DNA from: an uncultured Acidobacteriota bacterium
GTDB lineage: Bacteria > Acidobacteriota > UBA4820 > DSQY01
Length of the DNA stretch: 64,000 nt
Reading direction: 5' to 3'
NCBI GenBank assembly: GCA_963772255.1
Contig: CAVYWK010000022.1
Location: forward strand, 242,525-306,524
Shown here: positions 3,641 through 17,830 of the stretch, in pieces
How the letters are laid out: each line of letters begins with the position of its first letter
Numbering within the stretch: the stretch's first letter is position 1
The notes under the pieces: generated by a model
Database searches by the model: none
What the model was told of the DNA's origin: nothing
What the model saw: only the letters and a program-made list of their open reading frames with translations
Position numbers and translations under genes: made by a program

Positions 3641-5080
3641 ATGGAACGCCTGGGCCCCGTTGTTGCCACAGTCCCTGCGGCCACCGTCTCCTCGGCCCGT
3701 GCCGCGGCCCGTGCCGCGCGGGCCGCCGGAGCGGCCCGCGCCGAAATGAGGCTGGACCACCTGGATCGGGGCGAGGACCCGCTCTCCCTGGCGGACCTCG
3801 CCCGGGAGATGCCGCTCCTGCTCTCCGGCCGTCGGGACGCGTTTCGCACCGAGGACCTGCCCGCATTCAGGCGAGGACAGGCTCTGGGCGCCTGGGTGGA
3901 TCTGCCATTTTCTACCCACCTGCCCGAGGATCTCTTCGGTCTGGACCCTTCGAAGATGGTTCTTTCGTGGCACGACTTCGAGGGGACGCCCCCGAAACCG
4001 GAGGCCGTCCTTGAGCGAATGCGGACCCGCCGCGCCGCGGCCTACAAGATCGTCACGACGGCCCGGGACCTTCCCGACGCCCTTTCGATGCTTCGCTTTG
4101 TGGACCACCGGGGGACCGAGGGAGACCTCTGCGCGTTCGCCATGGACGGCCCGGGCGCGCCCAGCCGGGTGCTCGCCCTGGCATGGGGATCCTGCGCCAC
4201 CTACGCTACCGCGCCGGGGTGCGAGGCCGCCGCCGCCGGACAGATGGGCCTGGAGGAGTTCCTCGGTGACTACCGGCCCGGGGATCTTGGCCGGCAGGAT
4301 CCCCTGTACGCCCTGGCGGGATGGCCCCTGGCCCACACTCGGACGCCTTCGTTCTTCAACCGATGGCTGGCGAATACGGGCCTCCCCGGCCGGTACCTGC
4401 CGATCCCGTGCACGAATCCCTCGGCTCTTCTGGAGGGCGGCCTGCCCCTGGGGGGAGTGGCGATCACCATCCCCCACAAGGAGACCGTCGTGTCCCTGGC
4501 GGGTCGCTCCTCGCACCTGGTTCGAGCGACGGGCGCCTGCAACACGCTCCTGCCCACACCGGCCTGCTGGCTCGCCGCGAATACGGACGTCTTCGGCGTG
4601 AGGCGAGCCTTGCGCCACGTGCCTCGGGGTTCCCGGTGCCTGCTGCTCGGATACGGCGGCGCGGCCGCAGCCGCGGCGTTCGCGCTGGCAGGCCGCGGAC
4701 CCGTGTCCGTCTCGGGGCGCGATGACGAAAAGGCCGCAGCCTTTGCTCGGAGGTGGGGGTTGCTGGCCGCTCCCTGGGAAGAGAGGGGATCGGCCCGCTG
4801 GGACCTCCTGGTCAACGCCACGCCGGTGGGGCGTCACGACGGCGAAATGCCCTATCCGGTCGATCGCCTTTGCGGTTCTTGGGTCTTCGATATGGTGGTA
4901 CGCCCCGGCAGAACGACGCTTTTGAAATCCGCCTCCGACCGTGGACTGGCGGCCATCCAGGGCGAAGCCATGCTCATTCCCCAGGCCGCCTTGCAGTACC
5001 GCCTCTGGACAGGGCGGAGGCCGTCGAGGGAAGGTGGCATGGAGCATTCATTCCTTGACGGGGCACCCTTTCCTCGCTAG
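3641..5080 (+). CDS. aroDE: Type I 3-dehydroquinate dehydratase / shikimate dehydrogenase fusion (AroD-AroE)
   Basis: N-half has AEMRLD, LSWHDF, YKIV and AFAM. C-half has ITIPHKE, GACNT, NTD, LGYGGAA, NATPVG and MLIPQAALQ. Confidence 0.85.
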   Translation: MERLGPVVATVPAATVSSARAAARAARAAGAARAEMRLDHLDRGEDPLSLADLAREMPLLLSGRRDAFRTEDLPAFRRGQALGAWVDLPFSTHLPEDLFGLDPSKMVLSWHDFEGTPPKPEAVLERMRTRRAAAYKIVTTARDLPDALSMLRFVDHRGTEGDLCAFAMDGPGAPSRVLALAWGSCATYATAPGCEAAAAGQMGLEEFLGDYRPGDLGRQDPLYALAGWPLAHTRTPSFFNRWLANTGLPGRYLPIPCTNPSALLEGGLPLGGVAITIPHKETVVSLAGRSSHLVRATGACNTLLPTPACWLAANTDVFGVRRALRHVPRGSRCLLLGYGGAAAAAAFALAGRGPVSVSGRDDEKAAAFARRWGLLAAPWEERGSARWDLLVNATPVGRHDGEMPYPVDRLCGSWVFDMVVRPGRTTLLKSASDRGLAAIQGEAMLIPQAALQYRLWTGRRPSREGGMEHSFLDGAPFPR

Positions 5081-5157
5081 ATTGGGAGGGTGAACCCGAA
5101 GGAGACGATCGACCTCATCCTGACCGAATGCCTCGCTTTGGCCACAGGGAAAGGACC

Positions 5158-5910
5158 ATGAAGCGACGCACGTTCGTCCGCGTGGCAGGGCGCCTCACCC
5201 TCGCCGCAGCGGTGTTCCCTCGCACGACTCTCGCAAGAATCGCCGGGGAGATTTCCATCCCCGGCCACCCCAACCCGCAAGGAGGACGACCCATGGCTTA
5301 CGAAGCGAAAGTTCATCTGAAACCATCCGGACTCAAGGGAATTTCCGAGAACCAGATCGCCCAGCACTGGAAGCTCTACGAGGGATACGTGGCCAATACC
5401 AACGGCCTCATCACCGAGCTCGAGGCCATGCGGAAGGAGGGCAAGGGGGGGACGCCGATCTACGCAGACCGGCGGCGCCGGTTCGGGTTCGAATACAACG
5501 GCATGGTCCTCCACGAGTACTACTTCGGCAACCTCAAAACCGGCGTGGCCGCGCCCGGTGATGCCACGGCCTTCAAGAAGGCCCTGGCCGAGCAGTTCGG
5601 CTCCTTCGACGCCTGGAAGGAGGATTTCGTCAAGACCGGAGCCTCCCGCTCCATCGGCTGGGCCATCCTCTACCTCGACCCGGCCACAGGCACCCTCACC
5701 AACGATTTCATCCAGCTCCACGAGGAAGGCAACGTGGCCGGGTTCATCCCCGTCCTGGTCATGGATGTCTGGGAGCACGCCTACATGGTGGACCAGCCCG
5801 CCACGGGCCGCCCCGAATACATCAAGGCCTTCTTCGAGAACGTCAACTGGTCCGTCGCCGAGAAACGCTTCGACGAGGCCAAGGCAGGGAAGATCCCCGC
5901 CCGGTGGTGA
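5158..5910 (+). CDS. sod: Fe/Mn superoxide dismutase, divergent subtype, with in-frame twin-arginine leader (second RBS+ATG at 5293)
   Basis: Metal-ligand segments AQHWKLY, LHEYYF and DVWEHAY. Leader MKRRTFVR. A purine-rich RBS precedes each ATG. Confidence 0.88.
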   Translation: MKRRTFVRVAGRLTLAAAVFPRTTLARIAGEISIPGHPNPQGGRPMAYEAKVHLKPSGLKGISENQIAQHWKLYEGYVANTNGLITELEAMRKEGKGGTPIYADRRRRFGFEYNGMVLHEYYFGNLKTGVAAPGDATAFKKALAEQFGSFDAWKEDFVKTGASRSIGWAILYLDPATGTLTNDFIQLHEEGNVAGFIPVLVMDVWEHAYMVDQPATGRPEYIKAFFENVNWSVAEKRFDEAKAGKIPARW

Positions 5911-5988
5911 GGTCGGCATGGTGCACTGGGGACTAGACTCGGCGTGCGGACGGGTCGAGCCAAGACCGGAAGAGGATCGCGCATCGGC

Positions 5989-6014
5989 AAAGGCGGGCTT
6001 AGGCCCGCCTTTTT
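5989..6014. terminator. Intrinsic terminator, probably bidirectional
   Basis: AAAGGCGGGC-TTAG-GCCCGCCTTTTT between convergent genes. Confidence 0.8.
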
Positions 6015-6047
6015 CGTCATCGGAACCCGGCCCCGTCCTGCGGCCTG

Positions 6048-6539
6048 CTAGCGCTTGCGGGCTCGGGACCTGGGAGCGAGGAGCGTGCCCCGGCATCGGG
6101 GTGTTCCGCAGTGACAGGGGTACCGCGCCTTCACGGCGCGGGTGTGGCGGCCCTCGAGGTCGAGGGCGTAATCGTAGGTCAGTTCCTCGCCCGGCAGAAT
6201 GTCCCTCAGGGCTTCGATGAAAATGCGCCCCGCGTCCTCCACGGCCTGGCAGGAGGGTTCGCACGAGTGGTTGATGAAGCGGGCCTCGTTGCCCCGCACG
6301 GCACCGTCGATGACCGTGCGGTCATCCACCGCGAACAGCACCACGTGGATCGCGTCTCCGGGGGTGTCTTCATGGCGCCGGGAGGCTTCTTCGTGGGTGA
6401 TCCGCTGCCCCATGTACTCGAGGATCCTGGTCCCTGAAGCCATGGGGCGACGGGCGAAGACCCCCGTTCCATGTATGGGGGAGGTTCGCACTTCCCACTT
6501 CGGCGCACGAATCGTGACCGCGCCTCCCGAACCCCTCAA
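6048..6539 (-). CDS. SET-domain protein-lysine methyltransferase with post-SET Cys cluster
   Basis: HGTGVFA, RFINHSCEP, EELTYDY and CHCGTPRCRG. TTG start overlaps the upstream stop (TTGA). Confidence 0.9.
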   Translation of the reverse strand: MRGSGGAVTIRAPKWEVRTSPIHGTGVFARRPMASGTRILEYMGQRITHEEASRRHEDTPGDAIHVVLFAVDDRTVIDGAVRGNEARFINHSCEPSCQAVEDAGRIFIEALRDILPGEELTYDYALDLEGRHTRAVKARYPCHCGTPRCRGTLLAPRSRARKR

Positions 6540-7336
6540 CCTTCCTCCCGCTCCGCGGCGGCGGCTTCCATTCTTCGGCTGAGGGCGCACCCGAGGAATA
6601 GGAAAAGCGCGGTGTAGACCGCCAGGAACACGAGCGCGGCGGTTCGGGATTCGCTGGCCGCGAGCATCTGCTCGATCACCCCTTGGGGAGCCGTGTTGTG
6701 GGGCAGGAGCGTGTGCAGGTGGAACAGGAGCGTGAGCCTCTTGAGGAAGCCCGGAAGCCACGCCACCAGGTTCTCCCAGCCGAACCCGATGATGAGGCCC
6801 CAGAATAGGGGCTTCTTCACGGCCAAACCGATAAAGGCGAAGAGGGCGCCGTAGGCCAACACGCCCAGCCCCGTGGTGGCCAAGTCTCCAAGGAGGGTCC
6901 CCATTTCCCGGCCCAGCGCTCCGGCGCCGTCGATGGAGAGGGACAAGAGATAGGTGCCCGCGATGCTCAGCCAGCTCCCCGCCACCAGCACCGCCACCAT
7001 GGCGGCGACCTTGGCCAGGTAGACCCTCTCGCGCCGCACGGGGCGGCCGAAGAGGTAGGGCAGGGTCCCGCCCTCCACCTCGTCGGCGATGAGCGAGGTC
7101 CCGAAGAAGAGCGTGGAGAGGGGGACCAGGAAGCCGGTGATGTAGGCCAGCACCAGGATGCCGTAGAGGGTCACGCCTCCCAGCGGCACCTGGACGCCCC
7201 GCCATATGAGCAGGCGGAGGAAGAGGGCCGCGGCCCAGGGCACCGCCAGGAGGAGCCCGAACAGCCAGCCCTTCACCGAGCGGGTCATACCCCGCGCCGT
7301 GAAACTGAAAATCGCCCGCACCGCGCCGTCGATCAT
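6536..7336 (-). CDS. ABC transporter permease (ABC-2 type)
   Basis: About 6 TM segments and SLIADEVEGGTLPYLFGRPVRR (EAA-like loop). Start overlaps the upstream ATPase stop. Confidence 0.85.
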   Translation of the reverse strand: MIDGAVRAIFSFTARGMTRSVKGWLFGLLLAVPWAAALFLRLLIWRGVQVPLGGVTLYGILVLAYITGFLVPLSTLFFGTSLIADEVEGGTLPYLFGRPVRRERVYLAKVAAMVAVLVAGSWLSIAGTYLLSLSIDGAGALGREMGTLLGDLATTGLGVLAYGALFAFIGLAVKKPLFWGLIIGFGWENLVAWLPGFLKRLTLLFHLHTLLPHNTAPQGVIEQMLAASESRTAALVFLAVYTALFLFLGCALSRRMEAAAAEREEG

Positions 7337-8250
7337 CACGCCACCAGGTAGGAAAAGACCGCCGACAGGTTGTCGTCGAGCGGGTTCAGGAGGTCCAAGC
7401 CCAGTTCGCGCTCGGCCATGAGGTCGCCCAGGCGCAGGCGGAAGTCGCCCATGTCCGTCACCTCGGCGGTGAGGATCTTGGCGTCCGCCCCGAAGGTCAC
7501 CGACTGCACGCAGGGCCAACCGATGAGCGATGCCGCCAGCGCGCGGGCGTCCGTGCAGCGCACGAACACGTGCATGGGCCTGGAGGCGATGGCCTGCCGA
7601 ACCTGCGGCACTTCGCCGGAGGCCAGAAGCTTGCCGTGGTGCAGGAGGAGGATGCGGCTGGTCATGGCCTCCACCTCGTGGAGCATGTGTGAGGACACCA
7701 GCACGCACTTGCCCTCTTCGCCCCAGCGGCGGATGGCCGCGATGGCCTGGGCCCGGCTGGGCGGATCCATACCGTTGAGGGGCTCGTCCAGCAGGAGCAC
7801 CGGCGGGTCGTGCACGAGGGCCTGGGCCATCTTCACTTTCTGGCGCATACCCTTGCTCATGGCCCGGACCTTTTTGCCCGCCTCCTCGCCCAGGGCCACT
7901 TCGTTGCAGGCGCTTCGGGCGCGGTCCCGGGCGTCGGCGGGGGAGAGACCGGATAGGCGACCCAGGTAGGCCACGAATTCGAGACCCGTGACATCCTCGT
8001 AGAAGTGGTCGGGGCTGGGGCAGTATCCCATCTGCTTGAGGGCGTCGGGGTTGGCGAAAAGGGCCTTGCCGTCCAGGTCCACCGTCCCCGAACTAGGCTG
8101 CAAGAGCCCCGCCATGAGGTTGAGGAGCGTGCTCTTGCCCGCCCCGTTGACGCCCAGCAGGCCGGTGACGCCGGGCTCGATGGTGAGGGAGATGCGGTTC
8201 ACACCCACCACCAGCCCATACCATTTTGAGACATTCTGGACACGGATCAT
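7336..8250 (-). CDS. ABC transporter ATP-binding protein
   Basis: GVNGAGKST, MSKGMRQK, LLLDEP and SSHML. Confidence 0.93.
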   Translation of the reverse strand: MIRVQNVSKWYGLVVGVNRISLTIEPGVTGLLGVNGAGKSTLLNLMAGLLQPSSGTVDLDGKALFANPDALKQMGYCPSPDHFYEDVTGLEFVAYLGRLSGLSPADARDRARSACNEVALGEEAGKKVRAMSKGMRQKVKMAQALVHDPPVLLLDEPLNGMDPPSRAQAIAAIRRWGEEGKCVLVSSHMLHEVEAMTSRILLLHHGKLLASGEVPQVRQAIASRPMHVFVRCTDARALAASLIGWPCVQSVTFGADAKILTAEVTDMGDFRLRLGDLMAERELGLDLLNPLDDNLSAVFSYLVA

Positions 8251-9125
8251 TGCAGCACCGCCCGGCGCGAGAACCGGACCACCAGCACCGCCACACTGGC
8301 GGCGGCCAGCCCGATGAAGTAAAGCGCCACGAGGGCCGGATGGAGGTCGGCTGAGGCGAAGGGTGCCGGCGCCCCAAGGCAGAGGTGCGCCAGTGCCGTG
8401 AGCTCCCGGGAGAGGGAGAAGAACCATACGGAGGTGACCTTGGTGATGGCGTAGACGATCCCGCAGGCGATGTCGCCGAAGAACACCAGCGCGATGAAGG
8501 CCAGGCCCACCACCCGCGGGGAGCGGGCCATGGAGGACAGGGCCAGCGTGAAGAGCACGATCACGCCTGGACCGATGGCCGTGTAGAGCAGGGTGCCCCA
8601 CAGGATCCGGGCGTGGGAGAAGAGCCAGGCGGCGTCCCCCGTGAGCCCCACCTGGAAGATCACCAGGACCAGCGTGGGCAGGAGGGAGAAGATGAGGAGG
8701 AACGCGCCGAGTGCTGTGCCCTTGGCCCACAGGTACTGGAAGGAGGAGACGGCCCGGCCCAGGAACACGTCCAGGGTCATGTCCTTGCGGTCCCTGGACA
8801 CGAGGCCGGACCCCACCCAGATGGACACGATGAACAGCAGGAAGAGGTCGTACCCGTTGGTGAGCAGCTTGGCCACGAGTTTCTCGTCCACCACGGGGAG
8901 CTGTTTGACCAGGTCCTTGGCCCAGTCCGCGTCCCCGAGCTGGGTATGGAGGAACGTGAGCGCCACGCCGTACATCCACGGAAGGAGGGCCACCACCAGC
9001 AGGAACACGAAGACCCTGCGACGGAAGTACGGCAGGATCTCCTCCCGGAAGAGCGGCCACCACCGGCGGTTCAGGGGGAGGCGGTCTCCCGTGTAGACTT
9101 CGTAGCCCTGCTCATAGACCGGCAT
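8247..9125 (-). CDS. ABC transporter permease
   Basis: About 6 TM segments and GSGLVSRDRK loop. Lies between two ABC ATPases with overlapping stops and starts. Confidence 0.85.
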   Translation of the reverse strand: MPVYEQGYEVYTGDRLPLNRRWWPLFREEILPYFRRRVFVFLLVVALLPWMYGVALTFLHTQLGDADWAKDLVKQLPVVDEKLVAKLLTNGYDLFLLFIVSIWVGSGLVSRDRKDMTLDVFLGRAVSSFQYLWAKGTALGAFLLIFSLLPTLVLVIFQVGLTGDAAWLFSHARILWGTLLYTAIGPGVIVLFTLALSSMARSPRVVGLAFIALVFFGDIACGIVYAITKVTSVWFFSLSRELTALAHLCLGAPAPFASADLHPALVALYFIGLAAASVAVLVVRFSRRAVLQ

Positions 9126-10050
9126 GGTTGTCCCCGTTTTTTTGCAGGGCCGAGAGGAAAAGTTCCTCCAGGGAGGTCTCCTCGCGGACGAATCGGTTCA
9201 CGGCCCCTCCCGCTTCGCGCGCCACGCGGAACACCGCCCTTGCGCTCTCGCCGGGCGGGAGCACCAGCTTGAAGAGGCCATCCTTCCTGGGCTCGACGGC
9301 CCAGCCCGCTCCGGCGCACGCGGCGGTGAACGCTTCGCCTGGGCCATCGCCCTCCCACTGGACCAGGAAGTGCTGAGCCTCGCTGTGCGTCCAGTCCTCC
9401 ACCGAGACGCCCGCCTGGACCTGGCCCCTGTGGAGGATTACCACCTGTTTGCAGAGCGTTTCCACATCTTTGAGGATGTGGGTGGAGAGGAGGACGGTCT
9501 TGCCCTGTCTCACGATGTCCTGGCATAGGGCCAGCATTTCTTCCCGCCCCACGGGATCCATGCCCGAGGTGGGCTCGTCCAACAGCAGGAGGGCCGGGTC
9601 GTGCACGAGGGCGGCGGCCAGCTTGAGGCGCTGGCGCATGCCCGTGGAGAAGGTCTCGGCATTGCGGTACCGGCTCTCCTCGAGGCCGACATACTGCAGG
9701 ACCTCGTGGGCGCGTTCCACGGCGGCCCGGCGCGGAAGTCCGGAGAGCTCGCCCAGAAGGGCAACCCACGCCACGCCGCTCAATCCCGGCCTCAGGCCCT
9801 CCCGCTCGGGCACGTAGCCCACGCGGTCGCGCAATGCGGGCCCCAGGGAGCCGCTGTCCTGCCCCATGAGGCTGAATCGGCCCGCGCTGAGGGGCACGAG
9901 CCCGAGAAGGGCCTTGATGAGCGTGGACTTTCCCGCCCCGTTGGGGCCGAGCAGCCCCACGGCGCCACCCTCGATGTCGAAGGTCACGCCCCTCAGGGCT
10001 TCGGTGGATCCATAGCGCACGCGGATGTCGTGGATCGACAAGACGCTCAT
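9112..10050 (-). CDS. ABC transporter ATP-binding protein
   Basis: GPNGAGKST, FSTGMRQR, LLLDEPT and STHIL. Confidence 0.93.
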   Translation of the reverse strand: MSVLSIHDIRVRYGSTEALRGVTFDIEGGAVGLLGPNGAGKSTLIKALLGLVPLSAGRFSLMGQDSGSLGPALRDRVGYVPEREGLRPGLSGVAWVALLGELSGLPRRAAVERAHEVLQYVGLEESRYRNAETFSTGMRQRLKLAAALVHDPALLLLDEPTSGMDPVGREEMLALCQDIVRQGKTVLLSTHILKDVETLCKQVVILHRGQVQAGVSVEDWTHSEAQHFLVQWEGDGPGEAFTAACAGAGWAVEPRKDGLFKLVLPPGESARAVFRVAREAGGAVNRFVREETSLEELFLSALQKNGDNHAGL

Positions 10051-11681
10051 GCCGTTCCTCTACGCCGCGTGGAAGGGGAAGGTTTCATCCCGCGCTCCTC
10101 CTTGCTCCCCGGACCAGGCCCCAGCAAGCGCCGCACGGACCCCCGGTCGAACTTTTTCCACAGGCCCGAGAGCCGCGCCCGGCGCTCGCCTGCGATCTCC
10201 CGCTGGACCTGGATGAGTCCGCCCATATCGAGGAGGGCCTGAAGGGGAAGATCGCCCCTGGCGGCCATTTCGCGGGCCAGGAGTTCCACCCGCGCCGCTG
10301 CCACGACCGCGTCCTGGTGCTCTCCGAGACAGTCCTGAAACTTCACCATGGCCTCAAGGAGAGGATCGAGGCGCTTCCCAAGGGCCGGGGCGAAGAACTC
10401 GCTGGCATAGCGCAGCCGCTTGAAGAGGATGCGGAGCCGGTGCAGGGCCGCAGGCGTGGAGACCGCCTCCGGGCCGGCTCCGGAGACGGGTACGGAAACC
10501 CGGCCCTGTTTCACCACGCGCCGGTAAGCCTGCCTCAGAAAGAGCGGTCCCGCCGTATCGGCCCGCTGCGCCGAAAGACCCCGCGGCCATTGGGGTGGAG
10601 CGGAGCTAGCCAGCGCGTGAAGCCGCGCCATGAGGTTCGCAAACCGCTTCCCCTCCATGGCGCTCACCAGGGTCTCCCGGGCGGGTCCACGCCGGACCCA
10701 CAGCTCGGCCTCCAGGGCCATGGCCACGCGGGCCGCTTCGCCCAACCGCCCAGATTGGCCCCTGAGTCCCTCGATGAAGACATCCAGGTCCCGAACCTCG
10801 CCCAGCAAGCCTGCGAGCCAACCCAGCTCCAGGCGAAGCGATTCGGCGCGTTTCGGACCCAGCGCCGGCCCCAGGAGGTTGAGAGCTGATCGCGCCCTGC
10901 GGGTGGCGACCCGCAGGTCGTGGAGGTATTCCGGATCCAGGTCCAGGAGCGTTCCTTCGATATTGGCGCGCATCTTCAGGACCTGTCCGACCAGCACCTT
11001 CCTCGCCGCCAGCGCCAGCGGGTCCTCCGGGCGAACCCTGTTGGCCTCGGGGGCTTGGCCTCCGGGTTCGGGACGCCCGAGGGCCTCCAGCGCCAGGCCA
11101 CACGCATCCAGGGATGTGGGGACCAGGCCCAGGCGGTCTCGAAGGTACACCGCGAGGTAATCCGCTTCACCCGGGGCACCCTCCACCAGGCGCGCCGTGA
11201 GCAGGGTCCCCCTCATGGACTGCGTTGTTGGGGTGAACGGGGGGACGGCGGCGCGCAGGGTTTCGCAACAGAGATCGATGCGTCCGCCACCCGGGGCGGT
11301 TAAGGCCGCCTCCGTCCAAGTCAGCCTGAGCGTCAAAACCGGAAAAAGGGGCCTGGCCCCCGCGAGTGCAGCCGCCGATTCTGGAAGACCCGCGCCCTCC
11401 GAAGGTAACGGCCACGGCCCTTGTGCCATGCGGTAGGGCGCCTCCACCACGGAGCCCTCCGCCGGGTCGAAGCGAAAGAGCCAGGAGCCCGCCCTCGCCC
11501 GCAGCCTGAGGCGTGACCCGGCTCGCGCGAACCGGCCGTCCTGTGTGTCGAGAAACCGGTCCGCCACGACCGCCGCGGGGCCGCGCTCCACACCGTATCC
11601 CGCCCGGGACAGGGCCCCGAGAACTCCCTTCGGGGTCCGCCCGCTCGGGACTAAGAATCGGACCACGACCACGGCGTCCAC
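10047..11681 (-). CDS. CYTH-like + CHAD domain protein (polyphosphate-binding)
   Basis: CHAD motifs LHDLRVATRRARS, LGEVRDLDV, LHRLRILFKRLRY and QDCLGEHQD. N-terminus has DT..RLRLR typical of CYTH. Start may be GTG 11672. Confidence 0.88.
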   Translation of the reverse strand: MDAVVVVRFLVPSGRTPKGVLGALSRAGYGVERGPAAVVADRFLDTQDGRFARAGSRLRLRARAGSWLFRFDPAEGSVVEAPYRMAQGPWPLPSEGAGLPESAAALAGARPLFPVLTLRLTWTEAALTAPGGGRIDLCCETLRAAVPPFTPTTQSMRGTLLTARLVEGAPGEADYLAVYLRDRLGLVPTSLDACGLALEALGRPEPGGQAPEANRVRPEDPLALAARKVLVGQVLKMRANIEGTLLDLDPEYLHDLRVATRRARSALNLLGPALGPKRAESLRLELGWLAGLLGEVRDLDVFIEGLRGQSGRLGEAARVAMALEAELWVRRGPARETLVSAMEGKRFANLMARLHALASSAPPQWPRGLSAQRADTAGPLFLRQAYRRVVKQGRVSVPVSGAGPEAVSTPAALHRLRILFKRLRYASEFFAPALGKRLDPLLEAMVKFQDCLGEHQDAVVAAARVELLAREMAARGDLPLQALLDMGGLIQVQREIAGERRARLSGLWKKFDRGSVRRLLGPGPGSKEERGMKPSPSTRRRGTA

Positions 11682-11713: not shown

Positions 11714-12499
11714 TCACCGGCGCACGCCGCGGACCAAGTCCGCAGGCATGGCTCTCGGAACCTTGCGCGTCTTGAGGTCGGCCACCACCGATTCCACGGG
11801 GTAGGAGAACCGTACGATCCGCGCCCGCGGATGCGCGCCTTCGCGCAGGTCCACGAGAGCATAGGAGCCTCGCGGGTCCCCGTCCACCGGCCGCCCCACC
11901 GAACCGCTGTTGACCACCAGGACCCCCGCCACGGTGCGGACGAAGGGGATGTGCGAATGGCCGCATGCCAGGAGCGCGGGTCGCTCCACGCCGAGCTTCC
12001 CCAAAAGGGCCGGCTCGGTGATGCTGGGAAAGATGTAGTCCGTGTCCGCCAGGGGACTCCCGTGGACCACCAGGATGTCCGCTCCACCCGCGGAGAACCG
12101 AAGCGACCCGGGGAGCGCGGCCATCCAGGCCAGCTCGGCGGGTCCCAGAACCTTGGCCGTCCAGGCCAGAGGGGCCCGCTTCCTGTGGCGACTGGCGCGC
12201 CGGAGCCGCTTGGGGGCGGACGCCAGGGCGCAGACCTTCCGGTCTACATTGCCGGCCAACGTGGGGAGCCGCTGCTCCATGAGGAGCCGAATGACCTCTG
12301 TGGGGTGGGGGCCTCCGCCCACCAGGTCCCCCGCGCACAACACCCGATCGGCACCGGCCGCGGAGGCATGCTCCAGGGCCACGCACAGGGCGGGAAAATT
12401 GGCGTGGATGTCCGATAGAAAGGCAATTTTCATGGGTTCTTTCGGCGGGGCGAGGTGCTCGGTCTCTACATCTCCCGCTCCCCCGCTCGACCCCCTCAC
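11714..12499 (-). CDS. Calcineurin-like metallophosphoesterase
   Basis: SDIHAN, GDLVG, GNVD, HGSP, GHSH and NSGSVG. ATG 12499 overlaps the upstream stop; alternative ATG 12433. Confidence 0.9.
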   Translation of the reverse strand: MRGSSGGAGDVETEHLAPPKEPMKIAFLSDIHANFPALCVALEHASAAGADRVLCAGDLVGGGPHPTEVIRLLMEQRLPTLAGNVDRKVCALASAPKRLRRASRHRKRAPLAWTAKVLGPAELAWMAALPGSLRFSAGGADILVVHGSPLADTDYIFPSITEPALLGKLGVERPALLACGHSHIPFVRTVAGVLVVNSGSVGRPVDGDPRGSYALVDLREGAHPRARIVRFSYPVESVVADLKTRKVPRAMPADLVRGVRR

Positions 12500-12987
12500 C
12501 TGCCCGGCGGCATCTTGCTGGCCAGGACCATGAGGAGGAGTTCGATTCGGGCCAGGTCCTTGACCCGCCCCTTCTTGGGCTTGACCTTGAGCCCGCCGAA
12601 AGCCGCGGCCATGGCCGTCAGAGTCCGGGCGCTCGGCAGGAGCGCCTTTTCGCCGGGAAGGCTGTCCCCGTCCAAGAAGAGGGCGAGGGACGCGGCCTCG
12701 CCGTCCAGGCGGTCCACCACTCCGGACCCCACCTCTTTAAGGACGGACCGAACCTTGGAGAGTTCCACGGCCACCTGCCGTCCCAGCTCTTGGCGGGAAA
12801 CCTTGGGCGTCTTGCCCAGCGCTTTGGCCTTTTTCTTCGCAGGGGCCTTCCTCTTGGGAGTCTTGCCGCGGACCTTGTTTCCCTGGGTGGCGGGGGATTT
12901 CTTCTCGCGTTTTTCGGGCGGGGCCGTGCCGGCTCCGGCGGATTCCGCGGTGATACTAGCCTCTGGCGTCATGAATGATGACCTCAA
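12496..12987 (-). CDS. Hypothetical Lys/Arg-rich basic protein
   Basis: Coupled at both ends (TTGA, ATGA). Contains EKREKK..KTPKRKAPAKKKAKALGKTPK and KVKPKKGRVKD. Confidence 0.7.
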   Translation of the reverse strand: MRSSFMTPEASITAESAGAGTAPPEKREKKSPATQGNKVRGKTPKRKAPAKKKAKALGKTPKVSRQELGRQVAVELSKVRSVLKEVGSGVVDRLDGEAASLALFLDGDSLPGEKALLPSARTLTAMAAAFGGLKVKPKKGRVKDLARIELLLMVLASKMPPGR

Positions 12988-13685
12988 CCTTTCTCTCTGC
13001 GTGCCAAAACCTGCTGGACGCGGCCCTTAAGGTCGGCATCGAGGGCCGGGATCGTCCGGTTGGCATTCACCACCTCGAAACCGTATCGCTTCTGCATTCT
13101 AACAAATTCCTGGCGGATTTTCCGCTGGTACCTCAAGAAACTTCCGAACCAGTCTCTCCCCAGCCCGCAGTCCATACCCGACTCCCAGTAGTCCAGCTCG
13201 GCGTGGGTCTGAAACGTCCTGTCCACGAGGGTTTTCGAGGAGACCATGAGGTAGAACACGGCCTCCGGCACGGGTGCCATGGCGTAAATCGACTCCACCC
13301 ACTCGGGCTCGGCGCCGCGGACGATGTCGCGCGCCATGAGCGTGTAGATGTAGCGGTCCGCCAGGACCACGAATCCCGCTCTCAGGGCCGGCACGATCTG
13401 GTTTTCGAGTTGGTCGTAGAAGTCCGTGGCATAAAAGAGACTCAGTGTCCTGGGGCTGAGAATGTTCCCTTGCTTGGCCTTCTCGAGCTCCGCCGCCACC
13501 AGGTTCGAGCGCTTGAGCCCCACCTGGGCCACGGCGTGACCCTGCTCCTCGAGCCACTGGCGCAGGAGACCGATGTGCGTGGACCGTCCGGAGGAGTCGG
13601 GACCCTCTAGGACGATGAGTGTCCCGGTGAGTTTGCCGGCGTCCACGCCCGGGGGGGCGATGTGGTAAAAGCGCTGGGGGCTCAT
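12984..13685 (-). CDS. Thymidylate-kinase-fold protein with degenerate P-loop (candidate regulatory PPK3-type subunit)
   Basis: LEGPDSSGRST (Walker A Lys->Arg) and LADRY. Paralogous to the upstream gene; ATGA overlap. Confidence 0.8.
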   Translation of the reverse strand: MSPQRFYHIAPPGVDAGKLTGTLIVLEGPDSSGRSTHIGLLRQWLEEQGHAVAQVGLKRSNLVAAELEKAKQGNILSPRTLSLFYATDFYDQLENQIVPALRAGFVVLADRYIYTLMARDIVRGAEPEWVESIYAMAPVPEAVFYLMVSSKTLVDRTFQTHAELDYWESGMDCGLGRDWFGSFLRYQRKIRQEFVRMQKRYGFEVVNANRTIPALDADLKGRVQQVLARREKG

Positions 13686-14365
13686 TGGGCAAACCTCTTG
13701 TGAAAGAGGGCCAGGTCGATGCGCTCTTGGATGAGTTGGCGCACGCGTGTCTGCTGGGCATGCACCGAGAGCGTCGCGTCCAAGACCGTAAACCCAAACT
13801 CCTCCACCATGCTCATATATTGGTCCAGGACCCTTCCCTGGAAAATCCTGAAGCTCTCCGTGATGTCTGGGCTCAACCCCAGGTCCATGCCGGCCTCGAA
13901 GTACTTGAGCTGGGGGCGCCCCTCCAGGATGCGGCCCAGGGCCACCTCCAGCGGCAGCCTGAAGAAGAAGGTGATGTCCGGGATCCTCGCGAACCCGTAC
14001 ATCTTCCGAAGCCACGCCTCGTCACAGCCTCTCGTGGCGTCTCGGGCGAAGGAGGTGAAAATGTACCGGTCGCACAGGACGATGTAGCCTGCCCTCAGGA
14101 GAGGGAGCATCTGCCGCTCGTACCGGTCGGCAAAATCCGTGGCGTGGATGAGGCTGAAGGTCGTGGGGGTCAGGAGCTGACGTTTCTTGCCCTTCTTGGT
14201 GGCTTCCCGCACCAGGGAAGAGCTGTTCCACTCCGTGAAAAAGACGCGGTACCCCTTGCTTTTGAGCCACTGGTGAACCAGGTGGATCTGCGTCGATTTG
14301 CCCGATCCGTCCAGGCCCTCCACGGCGATGAGCTTGCCCGGGAGCTTCTCGTCTCTCGGCCTCAC
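13682..14365 (-). CDS. Thymidylate-kinase-fold protein with intact P-loop (candidate catalytic PPK3-type polyphosphate kinase subunit)
   Basis: VEGLDGSGKST and LCDRY, but FTEWNS in place of the TMK REPG motif. GTGA overlap with the ppx stop. Confidence 0.8.
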   Translation of the reverse strand: MRPRDEKLPGKLIAVEGLDGSGKSTQIHLVHQWLKSKGYRVFFTEWNSSSLVREATKKGKKRQLLTPTTFSLIHATDFADRYERQMLPLLRAGYIVLCDRYIFTSFARDATRGCDEAWLRKMYGFARIPDITFFFRLPLEVALGRILEGRPQLKYFEAGMDLGLSPDITESFRIFQGRVLDQYMSMVEEFGFTVLDATLSVHAQQTRVRQLIQERIDLALFHKRFAQ

Positions 14366-15981
14366 GGTTTTCCCCCTTTTCTCCGCCCGCTGGTTGAGAC
14401 CTCCACCGACAGGCCGTAGGTCTTTTTTAGGAGATCGGACTTCCGCTTGAGCGCCCAACCCTCAAGGAGAAGATCCCCGTCTCCGTCGAGGGTGAGTTTC
14501 AGAGTATGTCCCACCGTTCTGGCCAAGACCCCGGAAACCTTCTGACGATGCTCCCGGTCTAGGGCGTCCGCGAGTCGCAGAAGGGCGGCCAGCTTGCTGG
14601 CCACCGCTCGCCCTTGAGGGTCCAGGGCCGAGTAGGACTCGTGTTCCAACTTGGGCATGTTACGCCGATGGTACCGGGCCACATTGGCGGCCAATTGGAC
14701 CTCCCGGGGGGCGAACCCGGCGAGGTCGGCGTGGGCGATGAGGTAGAGGCTGTGCTTGTGGTGGCGGCTGTAGCTCACGAAGGTTCCGATGTCATGGAGG
14801 AGCGCCGCCGCGTGCAGGACGGCACGCTCTCCATCTCCCATCTGGTGAAGGGGCCGGAGTTGATCGAAGAGACTCAGGGCCAGGCGCGCCACATGAATCC
14901 CGTGGGCCTCGTCGAACCGGTATTTGCGCCCGATGGCGACAGCCGCCTGGTGAACCTGCTGCTCCCTCTTCCCCGAGGACGGAAGACCCGTTCCTTGGTG
15001 GTCCGCCATGTCGAGAACGATTCCCTCACGGACCCCTACAAAGGGCACGGTGATCTCCTTGAGTCCGGAAAGGCGGGCCAGTCGCTCGTACACGATGGCC
15101 GCCGGAAGGATGACGTCGGCCCGGTCCTCCCTCAGGCCCAACTGGGTGACGCGCTCGTGGTAGCTCAAGCGAGCAAGTTGCCGGATGAGTCGAGACAGCG
15201 TGCTCACGGGCACTCTCGACACGCCGTCCGGGTCCGGGACCGCCATGGCCATCTGGGCGAGGGTCTCCATGTTTCCCCCCGTGGCGACGAACCCCACAGG
15301 GCTCTGGCCCACCAATCCCGCGGGAATCCGGAGCGTCTCGGCGTATTCCTGCAGCAGCCTGAGAACACCCTGGGGATCCGCCGACCCGCCCGCCAGTTCT
15401 TCCAGGAGACGAACCGATCCCATGGTGTGGGATTCACTCCACAAGACGCCCGTTTGGTCGGCGAGGGAAACCTCCACGCTGCCCCCGCCCAGGTCCGCCA
15501 TCATCCAGACGTCCGAGCCGAGTTCCAGGCGGCTCGCGACCGCCCGGCAGACGAGCCGGGCCTCTTCCGATCCGCTGATGATCTCCAGGTCCATGCCCGA
15601 TGCCCGCCGGACGCGGGCGAGGAAGCTCTTCCCGTTGGAACTCTCCCGCAGGGCGCTGGTGGCTACCGCCCGGTGCCGCGTGACCCCCAGTTCCCGCATG
15701 ATGCCGGCGTATTCTTTCAAGACCTTCACCGCGGCCGTCATCACGCCCGGGGACAGCCTGCCGCTCACAAAAACGCCGTGTCCCAGGCGCACGGGACTCC
15801 TGTCGGCCCGGATCACGGTATAGCTCTGGGGAGAGGAGAACTCGGCCACGAGGAGGCGTATCGCGTTGGAACCCACATCCACGGCAGCGGCGCGAAGGGG
15901 AAACGCGCGGTGAGGCCCCGGGTTCTTCCTGGGTTTCGTGGGGCGGCGCACCGCGTTGACTTTCTCACCCATCTTGGCCAC
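14362..15981 (-). CDS. ppx: Exopolyphosphatase / pppGpp 5'-phosphohydrolase (Ppx/GppA with HD domain)
   Basis: DVGSNAIRL, SGSEEARL, DLGGGSVEV, LLHDIG and RLADALD. Confidence 0.95.
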   Translation of the reverse strand: MAKMGEKVNAVRRPTKPRKNPGPHRAFPLRAAAVDVGSNAIRLLVAEFSSPQSYTVIRADRSPVRLGHGVFVSGRLSPGVMTAAVKVLKEYAGIMRELGVTRHRAVATSALRESSNGKSFLARVRRASGMDLEIISGSEEARLVCRAVASRLELGSDVWMMADLGGGSVEVSLADQTGVLWSESHTMGSVRLLEELAGGSADPQGVLRLLQEYAETLRIPAGLVGQSPVGFVATGGNMETLAQMAMAVPDPDGVSRVPVSTLSRLIRQLARLSYHERVTQLGLREDRADVILPAAIVYERLARLSGLKEITVPFVGVREGIVLDMADHQGTGLPSSGKREQQVHQAAVAIGRKYRFDEAHGIHVARLALSLFDQLRPLHQMGDGERAVLHAAALLHDIGTFVSYSRHHKHSLYLIAHADLAGFAPREVQLAANVARYHRRNMPKLEHESYSALDPQGRAVASKLAALLRLADALDREHRQKVSGVLARTVGHTLKLTLDGDGDLLLEGWALKRKSDLLKKTYGLSVEVSTSGRRKGGKP

Positions 15982-16001
15982 CCCCCTCGCGGGTGTCTTT
16001 C

Positions 16002-16030
16002 AGTATAGCCCGCCAGAGTGCTGGACGCAA
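16002..16030 (-). promoter_or_regulatory. Putative sigma70 promoter of the ppx operon
   Basis: Minus strand TTGCGT-17 nt-TATACT, about 20 bp upstream of the GTG. Confidence 0.6.
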
Positions 16031-16230
16031 AAAGGGACCTGCTTTGTTATCCCAGGCCCCCCTTCCTGGGGCGGCCCTAACTTGATCTGCGGTCTCCCTG
16101 GAGGGGAGCTTCCAGGGTCATCATCGGGGGGCTCGAGAGCAGTTGGCCGCCCCCTGCCTTCCGCTGGGTCTCGGGGGTGAAAAGCTGGCGCGAGGTGCAC
16201 TCTTGGAGACTCCTTCGGCGTGGTCCATTA

Positions 16231-16280
16231 TGGTATACTCGGTGGGTCAGGAGAGGGCCCTTTTCCACATCTGTGGAAAT
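16231..16280 (+). promoter_or_regulatory. dnaA promoter (extended -10) with two downstream DnaA boxes
   Basis: TGG-TATACT at 16231-16239. Inverted boxes TTTTCCACA (16261-69) and TGTGGAAAT (16272-80) fit autoregulation. Confidence 0.6.
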
Positions 16281-16293
16281 ACCTGTGAAAAAC

Positions 16294-17634
16294 ATGCCGG
16301 CTGATCTTTGGTCAAAGGTACTGAAATCGGTGAAAGGACGGGTCCCGGAGGGGACCTACAACACGTGGTTTGCTCCCCTGAAACCCGTCCAGGTTTCCGG
16401 GTGCCAGATCCGCGCCGTGGCACCCAATCCCCTGTTTATCGAATGGATCGAAAAGCACTACGCAGGGCTTTTTGGAGAGGTGGGGAGGGACCTGAACCTG
16501 CCGGACCTCATGGTCGAACTCCTGGAGGCGCCCCCGGAGGACCTTATCCTCGCACCCCCCGCATCGGGCAAGCCCAAGGAAAGCAAGGCCTCAGCGAAGA
16601 AATCTTCGGATGTCCCCGACCTCGGATTCAACCCCCTCTACCGTTTTGAGGCTTTCGTGGAGGGTCCCTCGAACCGGTTTGCCTACGCCGCATGCAAGGC
16701 AGTCGCGCAGAGTCCCTCGAAGGCCTATAACCCTCTTTATGTCTACGGGGGGGTCGGGCTGGGGAAAACCCACCTCATGCAGTCCATCGGCCATTTCATC
16801 CGGGACAACTTTCCCGCGCTCAAGGTCTCCTATCTGTCGGCTGAGCGCTTCATGAACGAGATGATCAGCGCCATCGGAAACAAATCTACGCCGGACTTCA
16901 GGAACAGGTACCGCCAGATGGATGTCCTTCTCCTGGATGACGTGCAATTTTTGGCCAACAAGACGGGCACGCAGGAGGAGATCTTTCATACCTTCAACGC
17001 GCTCCACGAGGCCCGCAAACAGATCGTCATCAGCAGCGACTGTCCTCCCCGTGATCTCCAGAGTATCGAGGAGCGTCTTCGGTCCCGGTTCGAGTGGGGC
17101 CTCATTGCCGATATTCAGCCCCCCGAACTTGAGACCAAGGTGGCGATCCTCTACAAGAAAGCAGAGGCCTATCACGTCAAGCTTCCCGAAGACGTGGCCC
17201 TCTTTGTTGCCAGTCGCATCAAGACCAACATCCGCGAGTTGGAAGGCTGTTTGGTACGCCTCATCGCCATGTCGTCATTCAGGGACCTGCCCATCAATCT
17301 CGACCTTGCCCATGAAACCCTCCACACCCTCTTTCGGGAGGATGGGCGATCGGTGACGGCCGAGGGGATTCAAAAGCAAGTCGCGGCCTATTTCAGAATG
17401 AAGGTTCAGGATCTGAAATCTACCAGCCACAAGGCTCAGGTGGTTCTTCCCCGGCAGGTCGCCATGTACCTCTGCAAAGAACTCACGGGGGCATCACTCC
17501 CCGAAATAGGCCGGAAGTTCGGCGGAAAGCACCACACCACCGTTCTTCACTCCATCCGAAAGGTGGAGCAGAAAATGGCCTCCGATCCGCAGTTTCAACA
17601 GCAGATCCACACCTTTATGCGTTCGTTTTGTTGA
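16294..17634 (+). CDS. dnaA: Chromosomal replication initiator
   Basis: YNTWF, NPLYVYGGVGLGKTHL, LLDDVQF, SRFEWGL, NIRELEG and domain IV HHTTVLHS. Confidence 0.98.
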   Translation: MPADLWSKVLKSVKGRVPEGTYNTWFAPLKPVQVSGCQIRAVAPNPLFIEWIEKHYAGLFGEVGRDLNLPDLMVELLEAPPEDLILAPPASGKPKESKASAKKSSDVPDLGFNPLYRFEAFVEGPSNRFAYAACKAVAQSPSKAYNPLYVYGGVGLGKTHLMQSIGHFIRDNFPALKVSYLSAERFMNEMISAIGNKSTPDFRNRYRQMDVLLLDDVQFLANKTGTQEEIFHTFNALHEARKQIVISSDCPPRDLQSIEERLRSRFEWGLIADIQPPELETKVAILYKKAEAYHVKLPEDVALFVASRIKTNIRELEGCLVRLIAMSSFRDLPINLDLAHETLHTLFREDGRSVTAEGIQKQVAAYFRMKVQDLKSTSHKAQVVLPRQVAMYLCKELTGASLPEIGRKFGGKHHTTVLHSIRKVEQKMASDPQFQQQIHTFMRSFC

Positions 17635-17830
17635 GGTTTCCCAATGATTGTGGAAAGGGTCCTGTGCATGATCTGTGGAAAACCCACTCCTTCGTGGCCT
17701 GGCCGGTTTCCACACAGGAGACATGTGGATTGTCCACACAGTTTTAGTCGAGTTTTTTGCGTGCCCGGCCAAGGCCGTTTGGCACATTTCCACACTTCCA
17801 CAGGCCCTACTGGCTCTACTGGTTAAGAGG
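17635..17830. other. oriC: DnaA-box cluster with DnaA-trio-like element
   Basis: About nine box-like 9-mers at 17649, 17663, 17674, 17706, 17724, 17730, 17778, 17786 and 17794. T-rich patch at 17741-59. The last box is followed by GGCC-CTACTGGCTCTACTGG. Confidence 0.85.

What the first reader, a model, noticed from the sequence alone, without database searches (positions are those of the whole stretch)
12496..12987. Unknown Lys-rich, histone-H1-like protein inside the polyP operon
Seen: 163 aa with a low-complexity basic tract (KTPKRKAPAKKKAKALGKTPK), a helical middle and a second basic patch (KVKPKKGRVKD), coupled at both ends. Inference: a polyP-granule or nucleoid-associated polycation that could drive condensates with polyP/DNA.
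Basis: partly seen in the sequence, partly recalled or inferred. Interest (0 to 1): 0.62.

Follow-up and report, generated by a model that had tools for sequence, protein, structure and literature searches.

The report
Small basic partner of bacterial PPK3
This is a real, conserved but undescribed small basic protein that nearly always sits directly behind the two subunits of the recently discovered polyphosphate kinase PPK3, so it is probably a missing accessory part of that bacterial polyphosphate machinery and not a generic histone-like protein.

Summary
The ORF is real. It most likely starts at ATG 12972 (158 aa) and not at TTG 12987 (163 aa). Homologues are under purifying selection (dN/dS 0.03-0.36).

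It has two parts:
- A disordered, Lys-rich N-terminal tail (residues 1-58, net charge +12).
- A confidently predicted three-helix domain (pLDDT 92) with a nearly invariant loop, K-P-x-K-G-R-x-K-D.

No Pfam, NCBIfam, PDB-sequence or Foldseek match exists.

The neighbouring "thymidylate kinase" pair is a bacterial PPK3 polyphosphate kinase (cPPK3-like and rPPK3-like). The operon reads ppx, cPPK3, rPPK3, X, metallophosphoesterase, CHAD.

Across about 100 family clusters, X lies directly after the rPPK3-like gene in every locus inspected but three. Those three read ppx-X or ppx-X-CHAD.

In 301 Acidobacteriota genomes, 29 of 31 X hits co-occur with PPK3, always adjacent. Another 19 PPK3 operons, all more divergent, lack X.

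The "H1-like" tail is the variable part: it is neutral or acidic in about 11% of members and nearly absent in several of those. The helical domain is the conserved unit.

Best reading (about 50%): a polyP-binding accessory or tether of one bacterial PPK3 clade. The link to polyP genes is well supported. Condensate formation and DNA binding are untested.

The parts
12496..12972 (-). Gene X: 158-aa basic protein (pI 10.5, net charge +18). The stop codon is 12496-12498. An alternative TTG start at 12987 would give 163 aa.
   Evidence: ORF list and sequence; 158-aa homologues with 100% coverage; dN/dS 0.03-0.36; charge.
12982..12985 (-). GAGG Shine-Dalgarno-like site, 9 nt upstream of ATG 12972, inside the end of the preceding gene.
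   Evidence: Read directly from the sequence.
12799..12972 (-). N-terminal tail, residues 1-58, predicted disordered, net charge +12. It is variable in length and sequence across the family.
   Evidence: pLDDT <50 for residues 1-53; alignments A1 and A2; tail statistics.
12802..12864 (-). Lys/Pro/Ala-rich tract KTPKRKAPAKKKAKALGKTPK (residues 37-57, net charge +10).
   Evidence: no tandem repeat at DNA level.
12499..12798 (-). Conserved C-terminal domain, residues 59-158. It is a three-helix fold with helices at about 60-100, 115-126 and 137-152.
   Evidence: AF2 with a 103-sequence alignment, pLDDT 92.1 and pTM 0.76; conservation profile; no PDB or BFVD fold match.
12556..12588 (-). Family signature loop KVKPKKGRVKD (K129-D139) between helices 2 and 3. 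K131, P132, K134, G135, R136, K138 and D139 are each >=91% conserved.
   Evidence: The motif PxKGRxKD or a close variant is present in 141 of 151 members.
12984..13685 (-). rPPK3-like thymidylate-kinase-fold subunit (233 aa). The Walker A is GPDSSGRST (Lys to Arg) and DRY is kept. The start overlaps the stop of the preceding gene (ATGA).
   Evidence: Pfam PF02223; PDB 2plr/5h70 at E=6e-35 against canonical Tmk at 2e-8; P-loop; overlap.
13682..14365 (-). cPPK3-like catalytic subunit (227 aa from GTG 14365), with intact Walker A GLDGSGKST and DRY. The GTGA overlaps the ppx stop.
   Evidence: PDB 2plr/5h70 (S. tokodaii cPPK3 homologue) at E=1.3e-59 against canonical Tmk at 1e-15.
14362..15981 (-). 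Exopolyphosphatase Ppx/GppA, first gene of the operon, divergent from dnaA.
   Evidence: Pfam PF02541 and PF21447; TIGR03706.
11714..12433 (-). YfcE-type metallophosphoesterase, next gene after X (62-nt spacer).
   Evidence: Pfam PF12850 at E=2e-24, with the match starting at residue 23 of the long ORF; conserved downstream of X in most close loci.
10047..11681 (-). CHAD-domain protein (544 aa) with a weakly CYTH-like N-terminal half.
   Evidence: Pfam CHAD at E=4e-53; CYTH only at E=0.043, below threshold.

Best explanation
X is the founding example, in this window, of an undescribed family of small accessory proteins that belong to one clade of bacterial PPK3-type polyphosphate (polyP) modules.

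Shown:
- It is a real gene under purifying selection.
- It is co-transcribed with, and closely spaced behind, the rPPK3-like gene in a ppx, cPPK3, rPPK3, X, metallophosphoesterase, CHAD operon.
- This placement is conserved down to about 30% identity and across at least two phyla.
- The protein is a basic, mostly disordered tail joined to a compact three-helix domain. That domain carries an almost invariant basic loop, KPxKGRxKD, at the N-terminus of helix 3.

Inferred:
- The conserved loop, together with conserved R75, R88 and R142, forms an anion (phosphate-chain) binding site.
- The polycationic tail adds non-specific avidity for polyP, and possibly for DNA.
- X therefore holds polyP next to the enzymes that make and degrade it. 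In effect it supplies in trans the kind of basic 'granule-addressing' tail that some PPK1 enzymes carry in cis.
- Retention of X next to ppx and CHAD in a genome with no PPK3 suggests that its primary ligand is the polymer or Ppx/CHAD, and not PPK3 alone.
For: Gene reality:
- 61 close homologues and 99 representative clusters.
- dN/dS 0.03-0.36 in the C-terminal domain.

Architecture:
- AF2 models.
- Conservation profile with K131, P132, K134, G135, R136, K138 and D139 at >=91%.
- Motif present in 141 of 151 members.
- Net charge +18.

The context is PPK3:
- The first Tmk-like gene matches PDB 2plr/5h70 at 1e-59 and the second at 6e-35. Both match far better than canonical Tmk.
- The family is defined in PMC12995831.
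- A canonical Tmk lies elsewhere in the genome and there is no PPK1.

Linkage:
- X lies directly after the rPPK3-like gene in the window and in L001-L019 and L043-L047, including members of 26-35% identity.
- In 301 Acidobacteriota genomes, 29 of 31 X hits are in PPK3 genomes and always adjacent. Fisher p is about 1e-25, not corrected for phylogeny.
- In the 101-genome sample from the phylum of L010 (an NC10 MAG), the only genome with PPK3 is also the only one with a strong X hit.

X without PPK3 but with ppx and CHAD: G256/L038.

Precedent:
- A basic C-terminal tail of Caulobacter Ppk1 is needed for granule association (PMC3806658).
- AlgP localises to polyP granules (PMC9239181).
Against: - No binding, localisation or expression data exist.
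- The fold has no solved relative, so a phosphate-binding site is inferred from conservation and charge only.
- The basic tail is missing or acidic in a minority of members, so it cannot be essential to the family's core function.
- 19 of 48 PPK3-bearing Acidobacteriota genomes, and the archaeal operon, work without X (PMC12995831). X is therefore not a general requirement of PPK3.
- Tight gene order after rPPK3 fits a protein-protein partner equally well.
Confidence: 0.5

Rival explanations
1. X is a strict protein-protein partner of the enzymes and does not bind the polymer. It would be a third regulatory or assembly subunit of bacterial PPK3, or a modulator of Ppx. Its invariant KPxKGRxKD loop would dock onto an acidic surface or reach into a nucleotide or polyP site of the kinase or phosphatase.
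For: - X is almost always the gene immediately after the rPPK3-like subunit, often with overlapping stop and start codons (L045 14-nt overlap, L047 4-nt overlap).
- Distant members (L044, L045, L047) keep only the Tmk pair as a neighbour, without the metallophosphoesterase or CHAD.
- X-containing operons form a distinct PPK3 sub-clade (cPPK3 VLCDRY, rPPK3 DSSGRS).
- A loop this invariant suggests a specific partner site.
Against: - X persists next to ppx and CHAD in a genome with no PPK3 (G256).
- It also follows ppx directly in L020 and L021.
- No fusion of the X domain to a Tmk, Ppx or CHAD protein appeared among 99 representative clusters.
- A strongly basic surface is what a polyanion binder needs.
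Confidence: 0.22
2. X is a nucleoid-associated, H1-like DNA-binding protein that tethers polyP granules to the chromosome (AlgP- or PhaM-like) and may drive polyP/DNA condensates. This is essentially the first reader's idea.
For: - Lys/Pro/Ala-rich disordered tract with net charge +10.
- Most family members keep a basic tail.
- Precedents are AlgP (PMC9239181) and PhaM (PMC3556143).
- In Acidobacteriota the operon lies next to dnaA and the origin region.
Against: - The tract is short (21 aa against 154 aa in AlgP) and not repetitive.
- It is not conserved in sequence, and is acidic or absent in some members.
- It matches no histone-like Pfam model.
- The conserved domain, not the tail, defines the family.
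- The dnaA adjacency is lost in the NC10 loci.
Confidence: 0.18
3. X is a small transcriptional or RNA-binding regulator of the polyP/Pho operon.
For: It is a small, basic helical protein inside an operon. In NC10 loci the cluster lies beside phoR/phoB-type and phoU genes.
Against: - It matches no helix-turn-helix or other DNA- or RNA-binding family.
- The loop between helices 2 and 3 is about 10 residues, unlike an HTH turn.
- Stoichiometric coupling to an enzyme subunit is unusual for a regulator.
Confidence: 0.05
4. The ORF is a chance open frame in GC-rich DNA and is not translated.
For: High-GC DNA gives many long spurious ORFs here. No expression data could be obtained.
Against: - Full-length homologues occur in two phyla and in low-GC contigs.
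- dN/dS is well below 1.
- The AF2 fold is confident.
- An SD-like site is correctly spaced.
Confidence: 0.01

Closest known systems
SaPPK3 operon of Sulfolobus acidocaldarius (sixA-ppx-cPPK3-rPPK3-CHAD; Hofmann et al., J Biol Chem 2026, PMC12995831)
   Same: - Same module logic: ppx, two thymidylate-kinase-fold subunits (one catalytic, one degenerate), and a CHAD protein.
- The window's first Tmk-like protein matches the S. tokodaii cPPK3 homologue 2plr/5h70 at E=1e-59.
- A canonical Tmk is encoded elsewhere in the genome.
   Different: - The archaeal operon as described has no X gene and no metallophosphoesterase.
- Here the degenerate subunit keeps DRY and instead has a Lys-to-Arg Walker A.
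- The paper mentions bacterial PPK3 only briefly, and in the text read here names no such accessory protein.
AlgP of Pseudomonas aeruginosa (histone-H1-like polyP-granule protein; PMC9239181)
   Same: It has a Lys/Pro/Ala-rich disordered basic region and a functional tie to polyP. AlgP localises to granules and spaces them.
   Different: - AlgP has a 154-aa KPAA-repeat C-terminal domain. X has a 21-aa non-repetitive N-terminal tract.
- No sequence relationship was found, and X matches no histone-like or other Pfam model. AlgP itself was not compared directly.
- X has its own conserved helical domain.
- X is encoded inside the polyP operon. To my knowledge, not checked here, algP is not.
Basic C-terminal tail of Caulobacter crescentus Ppk1 (PMC3806658)
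   Same: A short (22-residue, pI 11.8) polycationic tail is required to place the polyP kinase at granules and for normal granule production. This is the role proposed for X's tail.
   Different: That tail is part of PPK1 itself. X would provide it in trans to an unrelated kinase (PPK3), and X also has a structured conserved domain.
CHAD-domain polyP-granule proteins ('phosins')
   Same: They are helical, basic proteins co-encoded with polyP enzymes. One is encoded two genes downstream of X.
   Different: There is no homology: hhalign probability is 0.5% and there is no Pfam CHAD hit. X is about 100 residues with three helices and lacks the conserved histidines.
PhaM / PhaF adaptors of PHB/PHA granules (PMC3556143 for PhaM)
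   Same: The concept matches: a small adaptor links a storage-polymer granule and its synthase to the nucleoid. That it does so through a Lys-rich tail is from my own knowledge and was not verified in the text read.
   Different: The polymer and the families are different, and no sequence relationship was tested or expected.

Membership tests
Histone-H1-like / AlgP-type bacterial proteins | Long tandem array of KPAA/AKKA-type repeats (about 150 aa in AlgP) | tested here: not met
   Only a 21-residue basic tract is present. Tandem Repeats Finder finds nothing at 12400-13050. The tail is not alignable across the family.
Histone-H1-like / AlgP-type bacterial proteins | Sequence match to linker-histone, Hc1 or other histone-like models | tested here: not met
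   0 Pfam and 0 NCBIfam families for X. No such family appears among weak hits of 32 members.
Histone-H1-like / AlgP-type bacterial proteins | DNA binding and localisation to polyP granules | not testable with these tools
   This needs EMSA and fluorescence microscopy.
CHAD-domain polyP-binding proteins | CHAD domain (PF05235) with conserved His/Arg helices | tested here: not met
   No Pfam hit. Profile-profile comparison of A3 with CHAD alignment A4 gives probability 0.5%.
PPK3 polyphosphate kinase (applies to the two neighbouring genes, not to X) | Two adjacent dTMPK-fold paralogues, closer to the cPPK3 structure 5h70/2plr than to canonical Tmk, with a canonical Tmk elsewhere | tested here: met
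   E=1.3e-59 and 5.9e-35 to 2plr/5h70, against 1e-15 and 2e-8 to canonical Tmk. A third, canonical Tmk lies on another contig.
PPK3 polyphosphate kinase (neighbouring genes) | Operon neighbourhood with ppx and a CHAD protein | tested here: met
PPK3 polyphosphate kinase (neighbouring genes) | Regulatory subunit catalytically disabled (in SaPPK3, the DRX arginine is replaced) | tested here: inconclusive
   The second subunit keeps DRY but has Walker A GPDSSGRST (Lys to Arg) in all bacterial loci examined. This is a different lesion from the one described in PMC12995831.
PPK3 polyphosphate kinase (neighbouring genes) | ATP:polyP phosphotransferase activity | not testable with these tools
   This needs an enzyme assay.
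X family (defined here) | About 100-aa three-helix domain with the K-P-x-K-G-R-x-K-D loop, encoded next to ppx/PPK3 | tested here: met

The most novel reading that the evidence does not exclude
X is an obligate third subunit of this bacterial PPK3 clade. Its three-helix domain docks on the rPPK3 dimer. Its invariant KPxKGRxKD loop and cationic tail grip the nascent polyP chain, making the kinase processive and nucleating granules or condensates at the enzyme. This would be a 'synthase plus polymer-holding adaptor' arrangement not described for any polyphosphate kinase.
Probability: 0.2. Interest if true: 0.75.

Novelty: new variant of a known kind. Interest (0 to 1): 0.55.

Why it matters
PPK3 was described only in 2024-2026 and biochemically only from Sulfolobus. 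Its bacterial versions are untested.

This finding shows that one widespread bacterial PPK3 clade (Acidobacteriota, NC10/Methylomirabilota and unplaced metagenomic lineages) carries a conserved third gene of unknown fold, with an almost invariant basic loop. If X binds polyP or the kinase, three things follow:
- It would be a new, genetically tractable handle on how polyP is held, sized and positioned in cells.
- It would be a component that any reconstitution of bacterial PPK3 (for example for ATP regeneration or phosphorus-removal biotechnology) should include.
- It would be a new polyP-binding module for probes.

Tried and rejected
- **Family searches.** Pfam and NCBIfam scans of X gave nothing. 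A scan of 32 family members at E<=1 gave only scattered coiled-coil-type noise.
- **Solved structures.** A PDB sequence-profile search had best E=0.05, to designed helical repeats.
- **Fold searches.** Foldseek of the full-length model, which is poor (pTM 0.28), found nothing. Foldseek of the confident domain model against PDB and BFVD had best E about 0.9 and TM <=0.51.
- **Degenerate CHAD idea.** The idea that X is a degenerate half-CHAD domain was rejected by hhalign (probability 0.5%).
- **Fusion search.** No representative longer than 178 aa appeared, apart from one spurious 3453-aa repeat protein.
- **Non-homologous counterpart.** PPK3 operons without X show no small basic protein in its place; the rPPK3-like gene is followed by ppx or unrelated genes.
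- **Terminators.** The terminator scan found no convincing intergenic terminator on the coding strand.
- **Structural mapping.** Model coordinates are not exposed to the Python box, so conserved basic residues could not be mapped in 3D.

Full report
**What is there.**
On the minus strand, an ORF runs from 12987 (TTG) or 12972 (ATG) to the stop at 12496-12498. The ATG start is more likely. GAGG lies 9 nt upstream, and the closest homologues are 158 aa and cover the 158-aa query fully.

The product has net charge +18 and pI 10.5. Residues 1-58 carry +12, and the tract K37-K57 (KTPKRKAPAKKKAKALGKTPK) carries +10.

**It is a gene.**
A word-indexed search found 61 homologues of 88-178 aa, most of them 140-178 aa. 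An exhaustive HMMER search of 1.84 billion representatives found 99 clusters at E<=1e-3, almost all of about 100-180 aa. Codon comparisons of the C-terminal 100 codons give dN/dS of 0.03-0.36. The tail is less constrained, at about 0.1-0.45.

**Anatomy.**
With a shallow alignment, AlphaFold2 leaves residues 1-53 disordered. With a 103-sequence alignment of the domain (A3), the model of residues 55-158 is confident, with pLDDT 92.1 and pTM 0.76. It has a 41-residue helix (60-100), a loop (LPGE...LP), a short helix (115-126), the KPKKGRVKD loop, and a third helix (137-152).

Conservation is concentrated in E70, R75, E80 and R88 on helix 1 and in K131-P132-x-K134-G135-R136-x-K138-D139, followed by L140 and R142. 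Each of the loop positions is >=91% conserved across sequences that are otherwise 25-35% identical. The motif, allowing close variants, is present in 141 of 151 members.

The tail behaves differently. It is basic (net >=+5) in 78% of members and neutral or acidic in about 11%; for example, P0105 has net -11. In several of those neutral cases it is nearly absent. The 'H1-like' feature is therefore a common but dispensable appendage, and the helical domain is the family.

**No known relatives.**
- Pfam and NCBIfam give no hit.
- A PDB sequence-profile search gives nothing meaningful.
- Foldseek of the confident model against PDB and BFVD has best E about 0.9.
- Profile-profile comparison with CHAD domains gives probability 0.5%.
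- There is no tandem repeat at DNA level.

**Context: a bacterial PPK3 operon.**
The minus-strand cluster contains six genes:
- Ppx/GppA (14362-15981).
- Tmk-like A (13682-14365).
- Tmk-like B (12984-13685).
- X.
- A YfcE-type metallophosphoesterase (11714-12433).
- A CHAD protein (10047-11681).

Stop and start codons overlap at ppx/TmkA (GTGA) and at TmkA/TmkB (ATGA). X starts 11 nt after the TmkB stop.

TmkA matches the S. tokodaii protein 2plr/5h70 at E=1.3e-59, against about 1e-15 for canonical thymidylate kinases. TmkB matches it at 5.9e-35, against 2e-8. 5h70 is the cPPK3 homologue cited by Hofmann et al. (J Biol Chem 2026, PMC12995831). That paper showed that two such genes next to ppx and CHAD encode a heteromeric polyphosphate kinase, PPK3, found 'in a few bacteria'. 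The preprint version mentions Acidobacteriota.

The window's genome is a 3.5-Mb assembly, 86% complete. It has a separate canonical Tmk, no PPK1, and three PPK2 hits.

TmkA has an intact Walker A (GLDGSGKST). TmkB has GPDSSGRST, as do all bacterial rPPK3-like genes examined, and it keeps DRY. I checked that reading independently.

**Linkage of X to the module.**
- In the window and in loci L001-L019 and L043-L047, X is the gene immediately after the rPPK3-like gene, often overlapping it. This includes family members only 26-35% identical to the window protein, from low-GC contigs.
- Acidobacteriota loci share ppx, cPPK3, rPPK3, X, Mpe, CHAD and ABC-2 transporters, divergent from dnaA.
- NC10 loci keep cPPK3, rPPK3, X, Mpe and CHAD, next to phoR/phoB-type, PPK2, pstS-like and phoU genes.
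- Distant members keep only ppx, cPPK3, rPPK3 and X.
- In an even sample of 301 Acidobacteriota genomes, X was found in 31 and PPK3 pairs in 48. Of the 31 X hits, 29 are in PPK3 genomes, and X is adjacent to the pair in all 29. Fisher p is about 1e-25, not corrected for shared ancestry.
- Of the other two X hits, one (G022) is a weak partial match inside a 623-aa frame and is probably spurious.
- The other (G256) is a genuine variant reading ppx, X, CHAD, in a genome with no PPK3. Contigs L020 and L021 likewise show ppx followed directly by X.
- The 19 PPK3 genomes without X carry more divergent PPK3 (51-62% identity). In those inspected, the rPPK3-like gene is followed by ppx or unrelated genes, with no analogous small basic gene.
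- In the 101-genome sample from the phylum of L010 (an NC10 MAG), only the seed genome has PPK3, and it alone has a strong X hit.
- cPPK3 is 73-82% identical and rPPK3 72-75% identical between the two phyla, which points to horizontal transfer of the whole module.

**Interpretation.**
Shown: X is a conserved, translated accessory gene of one bacterial PPK3 clade, with a fold and motif that match nothing in Pfam, NCBIfam, the PDB or BFVD.

Inferred: the invariant Pro/Gly-containing basic loop at a helix N-terminus, backed by conserved arginines, looks like an anion-binding site, and the tail adds polycationic avidity. The simplest function is to bind polyP and keep it with its enzymes, as a tether, scaffold or processivity aid.

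Retention of X beside ppx and CHAD without PPK3 favours the polymer, or Ppx/CHAD, as the ligand over PPK3 alone. The near-universal position after rPPK3 keeps a direct PPK3 interaction a serious rival.

Precedents exist for basic tails acting on polyP granules:
- Caulobacter Ppk1 needs its 22-residue basic C-terminal tail for granule association (PMC3806658).
- AlgP, with a 154-aa KPAA domain, localises to and spaces granules (PMC9239181).

X is not a member of either family. Other notes of this scan report different basic partners in other bacterial PPK3 operons (e1-2778218, e1-3152264, e1-4426481). These are leads only. They suggest a recurrent theme.

**Verdict.**
The link to polyP genes holds strongly, but the H1-like tract is the variable part, and DNA binding and condensates are untested.

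Novelty: an uncharacterised protein family that defines a variant of the recently described PPK3 operon. Interest is moderate.

Noticed in passing
window 12984-14365 (-): The two Tmk-like genes are a bacterial PPK3 pair. In every bacterial locus examined, the second (regulatory-like) subunit has a Lys-to-Arg Walker A (G-x-D-x-x-G-R-S/T) and keeps the DRY motif. The Sulfolobus rPPK3 is instead described as having lost the DRX arginine.
   Followed up: partly
window 13682-14365 versus L010-L013 (NC10/Methylomirabilota MAGs): cPPK3-like proteins are 73-80% identical and rPPK3-like proteins 74-75% identical between Acidobacteriota and NC10. Only 1 of 101 sampled genomes from the phylum of L010 (an NC10 MAG) carries the module. 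This looks like recent horizontal transfer of the whole cassette.
   Followed up: partly
L038 (G256:C11:23000-33000), 3904-6870 (-): A variant cluster reads ppx, X homologue (129 aa, motif ARKGRVKD), CHAD. There is no PPK3 pair anywhere in that genome. It lies next to a GAF histidine kinase.
   Followed up: partly
window 6536-10050 (-): Two ABC-2-type transporter pairs (ATPase plus permease, twice) follow the CHAD gene. The first ATPase start overlaps the CHAD stop (ATGA at 10047-10050). This block is conserved downstream of the polyP operon in all Acidobacteriota loci but not in NC10. Its substrate is unknown.
   Followed up: partly
window 15982-16293 and 17634-17760: The polyP operon is divergent from dnaA-dnaN-recF-gyrB, and this arrangement is conserved in the Acidobacteriota loci. 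DnaA-box-like 9-mers with one mismatch occur at 16261, 17674 and 17730, but the window-wide count is not above chance (7 against 3.6 +/- 2.0).
   Followed up: partly
window 6048-6602 (-): A bacterial SET-domain protein (PF00856, E=9e-25) is encoded just downstream of the transporter genes.
   Followed up: no
own genome, G000:C1:244870-246307 and C23:93050-93754: The genome has no PPK1 but three PPK2-domain hits. Two of them are adjacent on contig 1 and may be a two-domain PPK2. PPK3 is therefore not the only possible polyP kinase here.
   Followed up: no
P0105 (L020/L021), P0104, P0154: Some family members have acidic N-terminal tails (net charge -5 to -11) in place of basic ones. Others (P0125, P0143, P0144, P0148, P0151) have almost no tail.
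   Followed up: partly
window 10992-11681 (-): The N-terminal half of the CHAD protein is only weakly CYTH-like (PF01928, E=0.043, below threshold). If it is a triphosphate tunnel domain, it is a divergent one.
   Followed up: no
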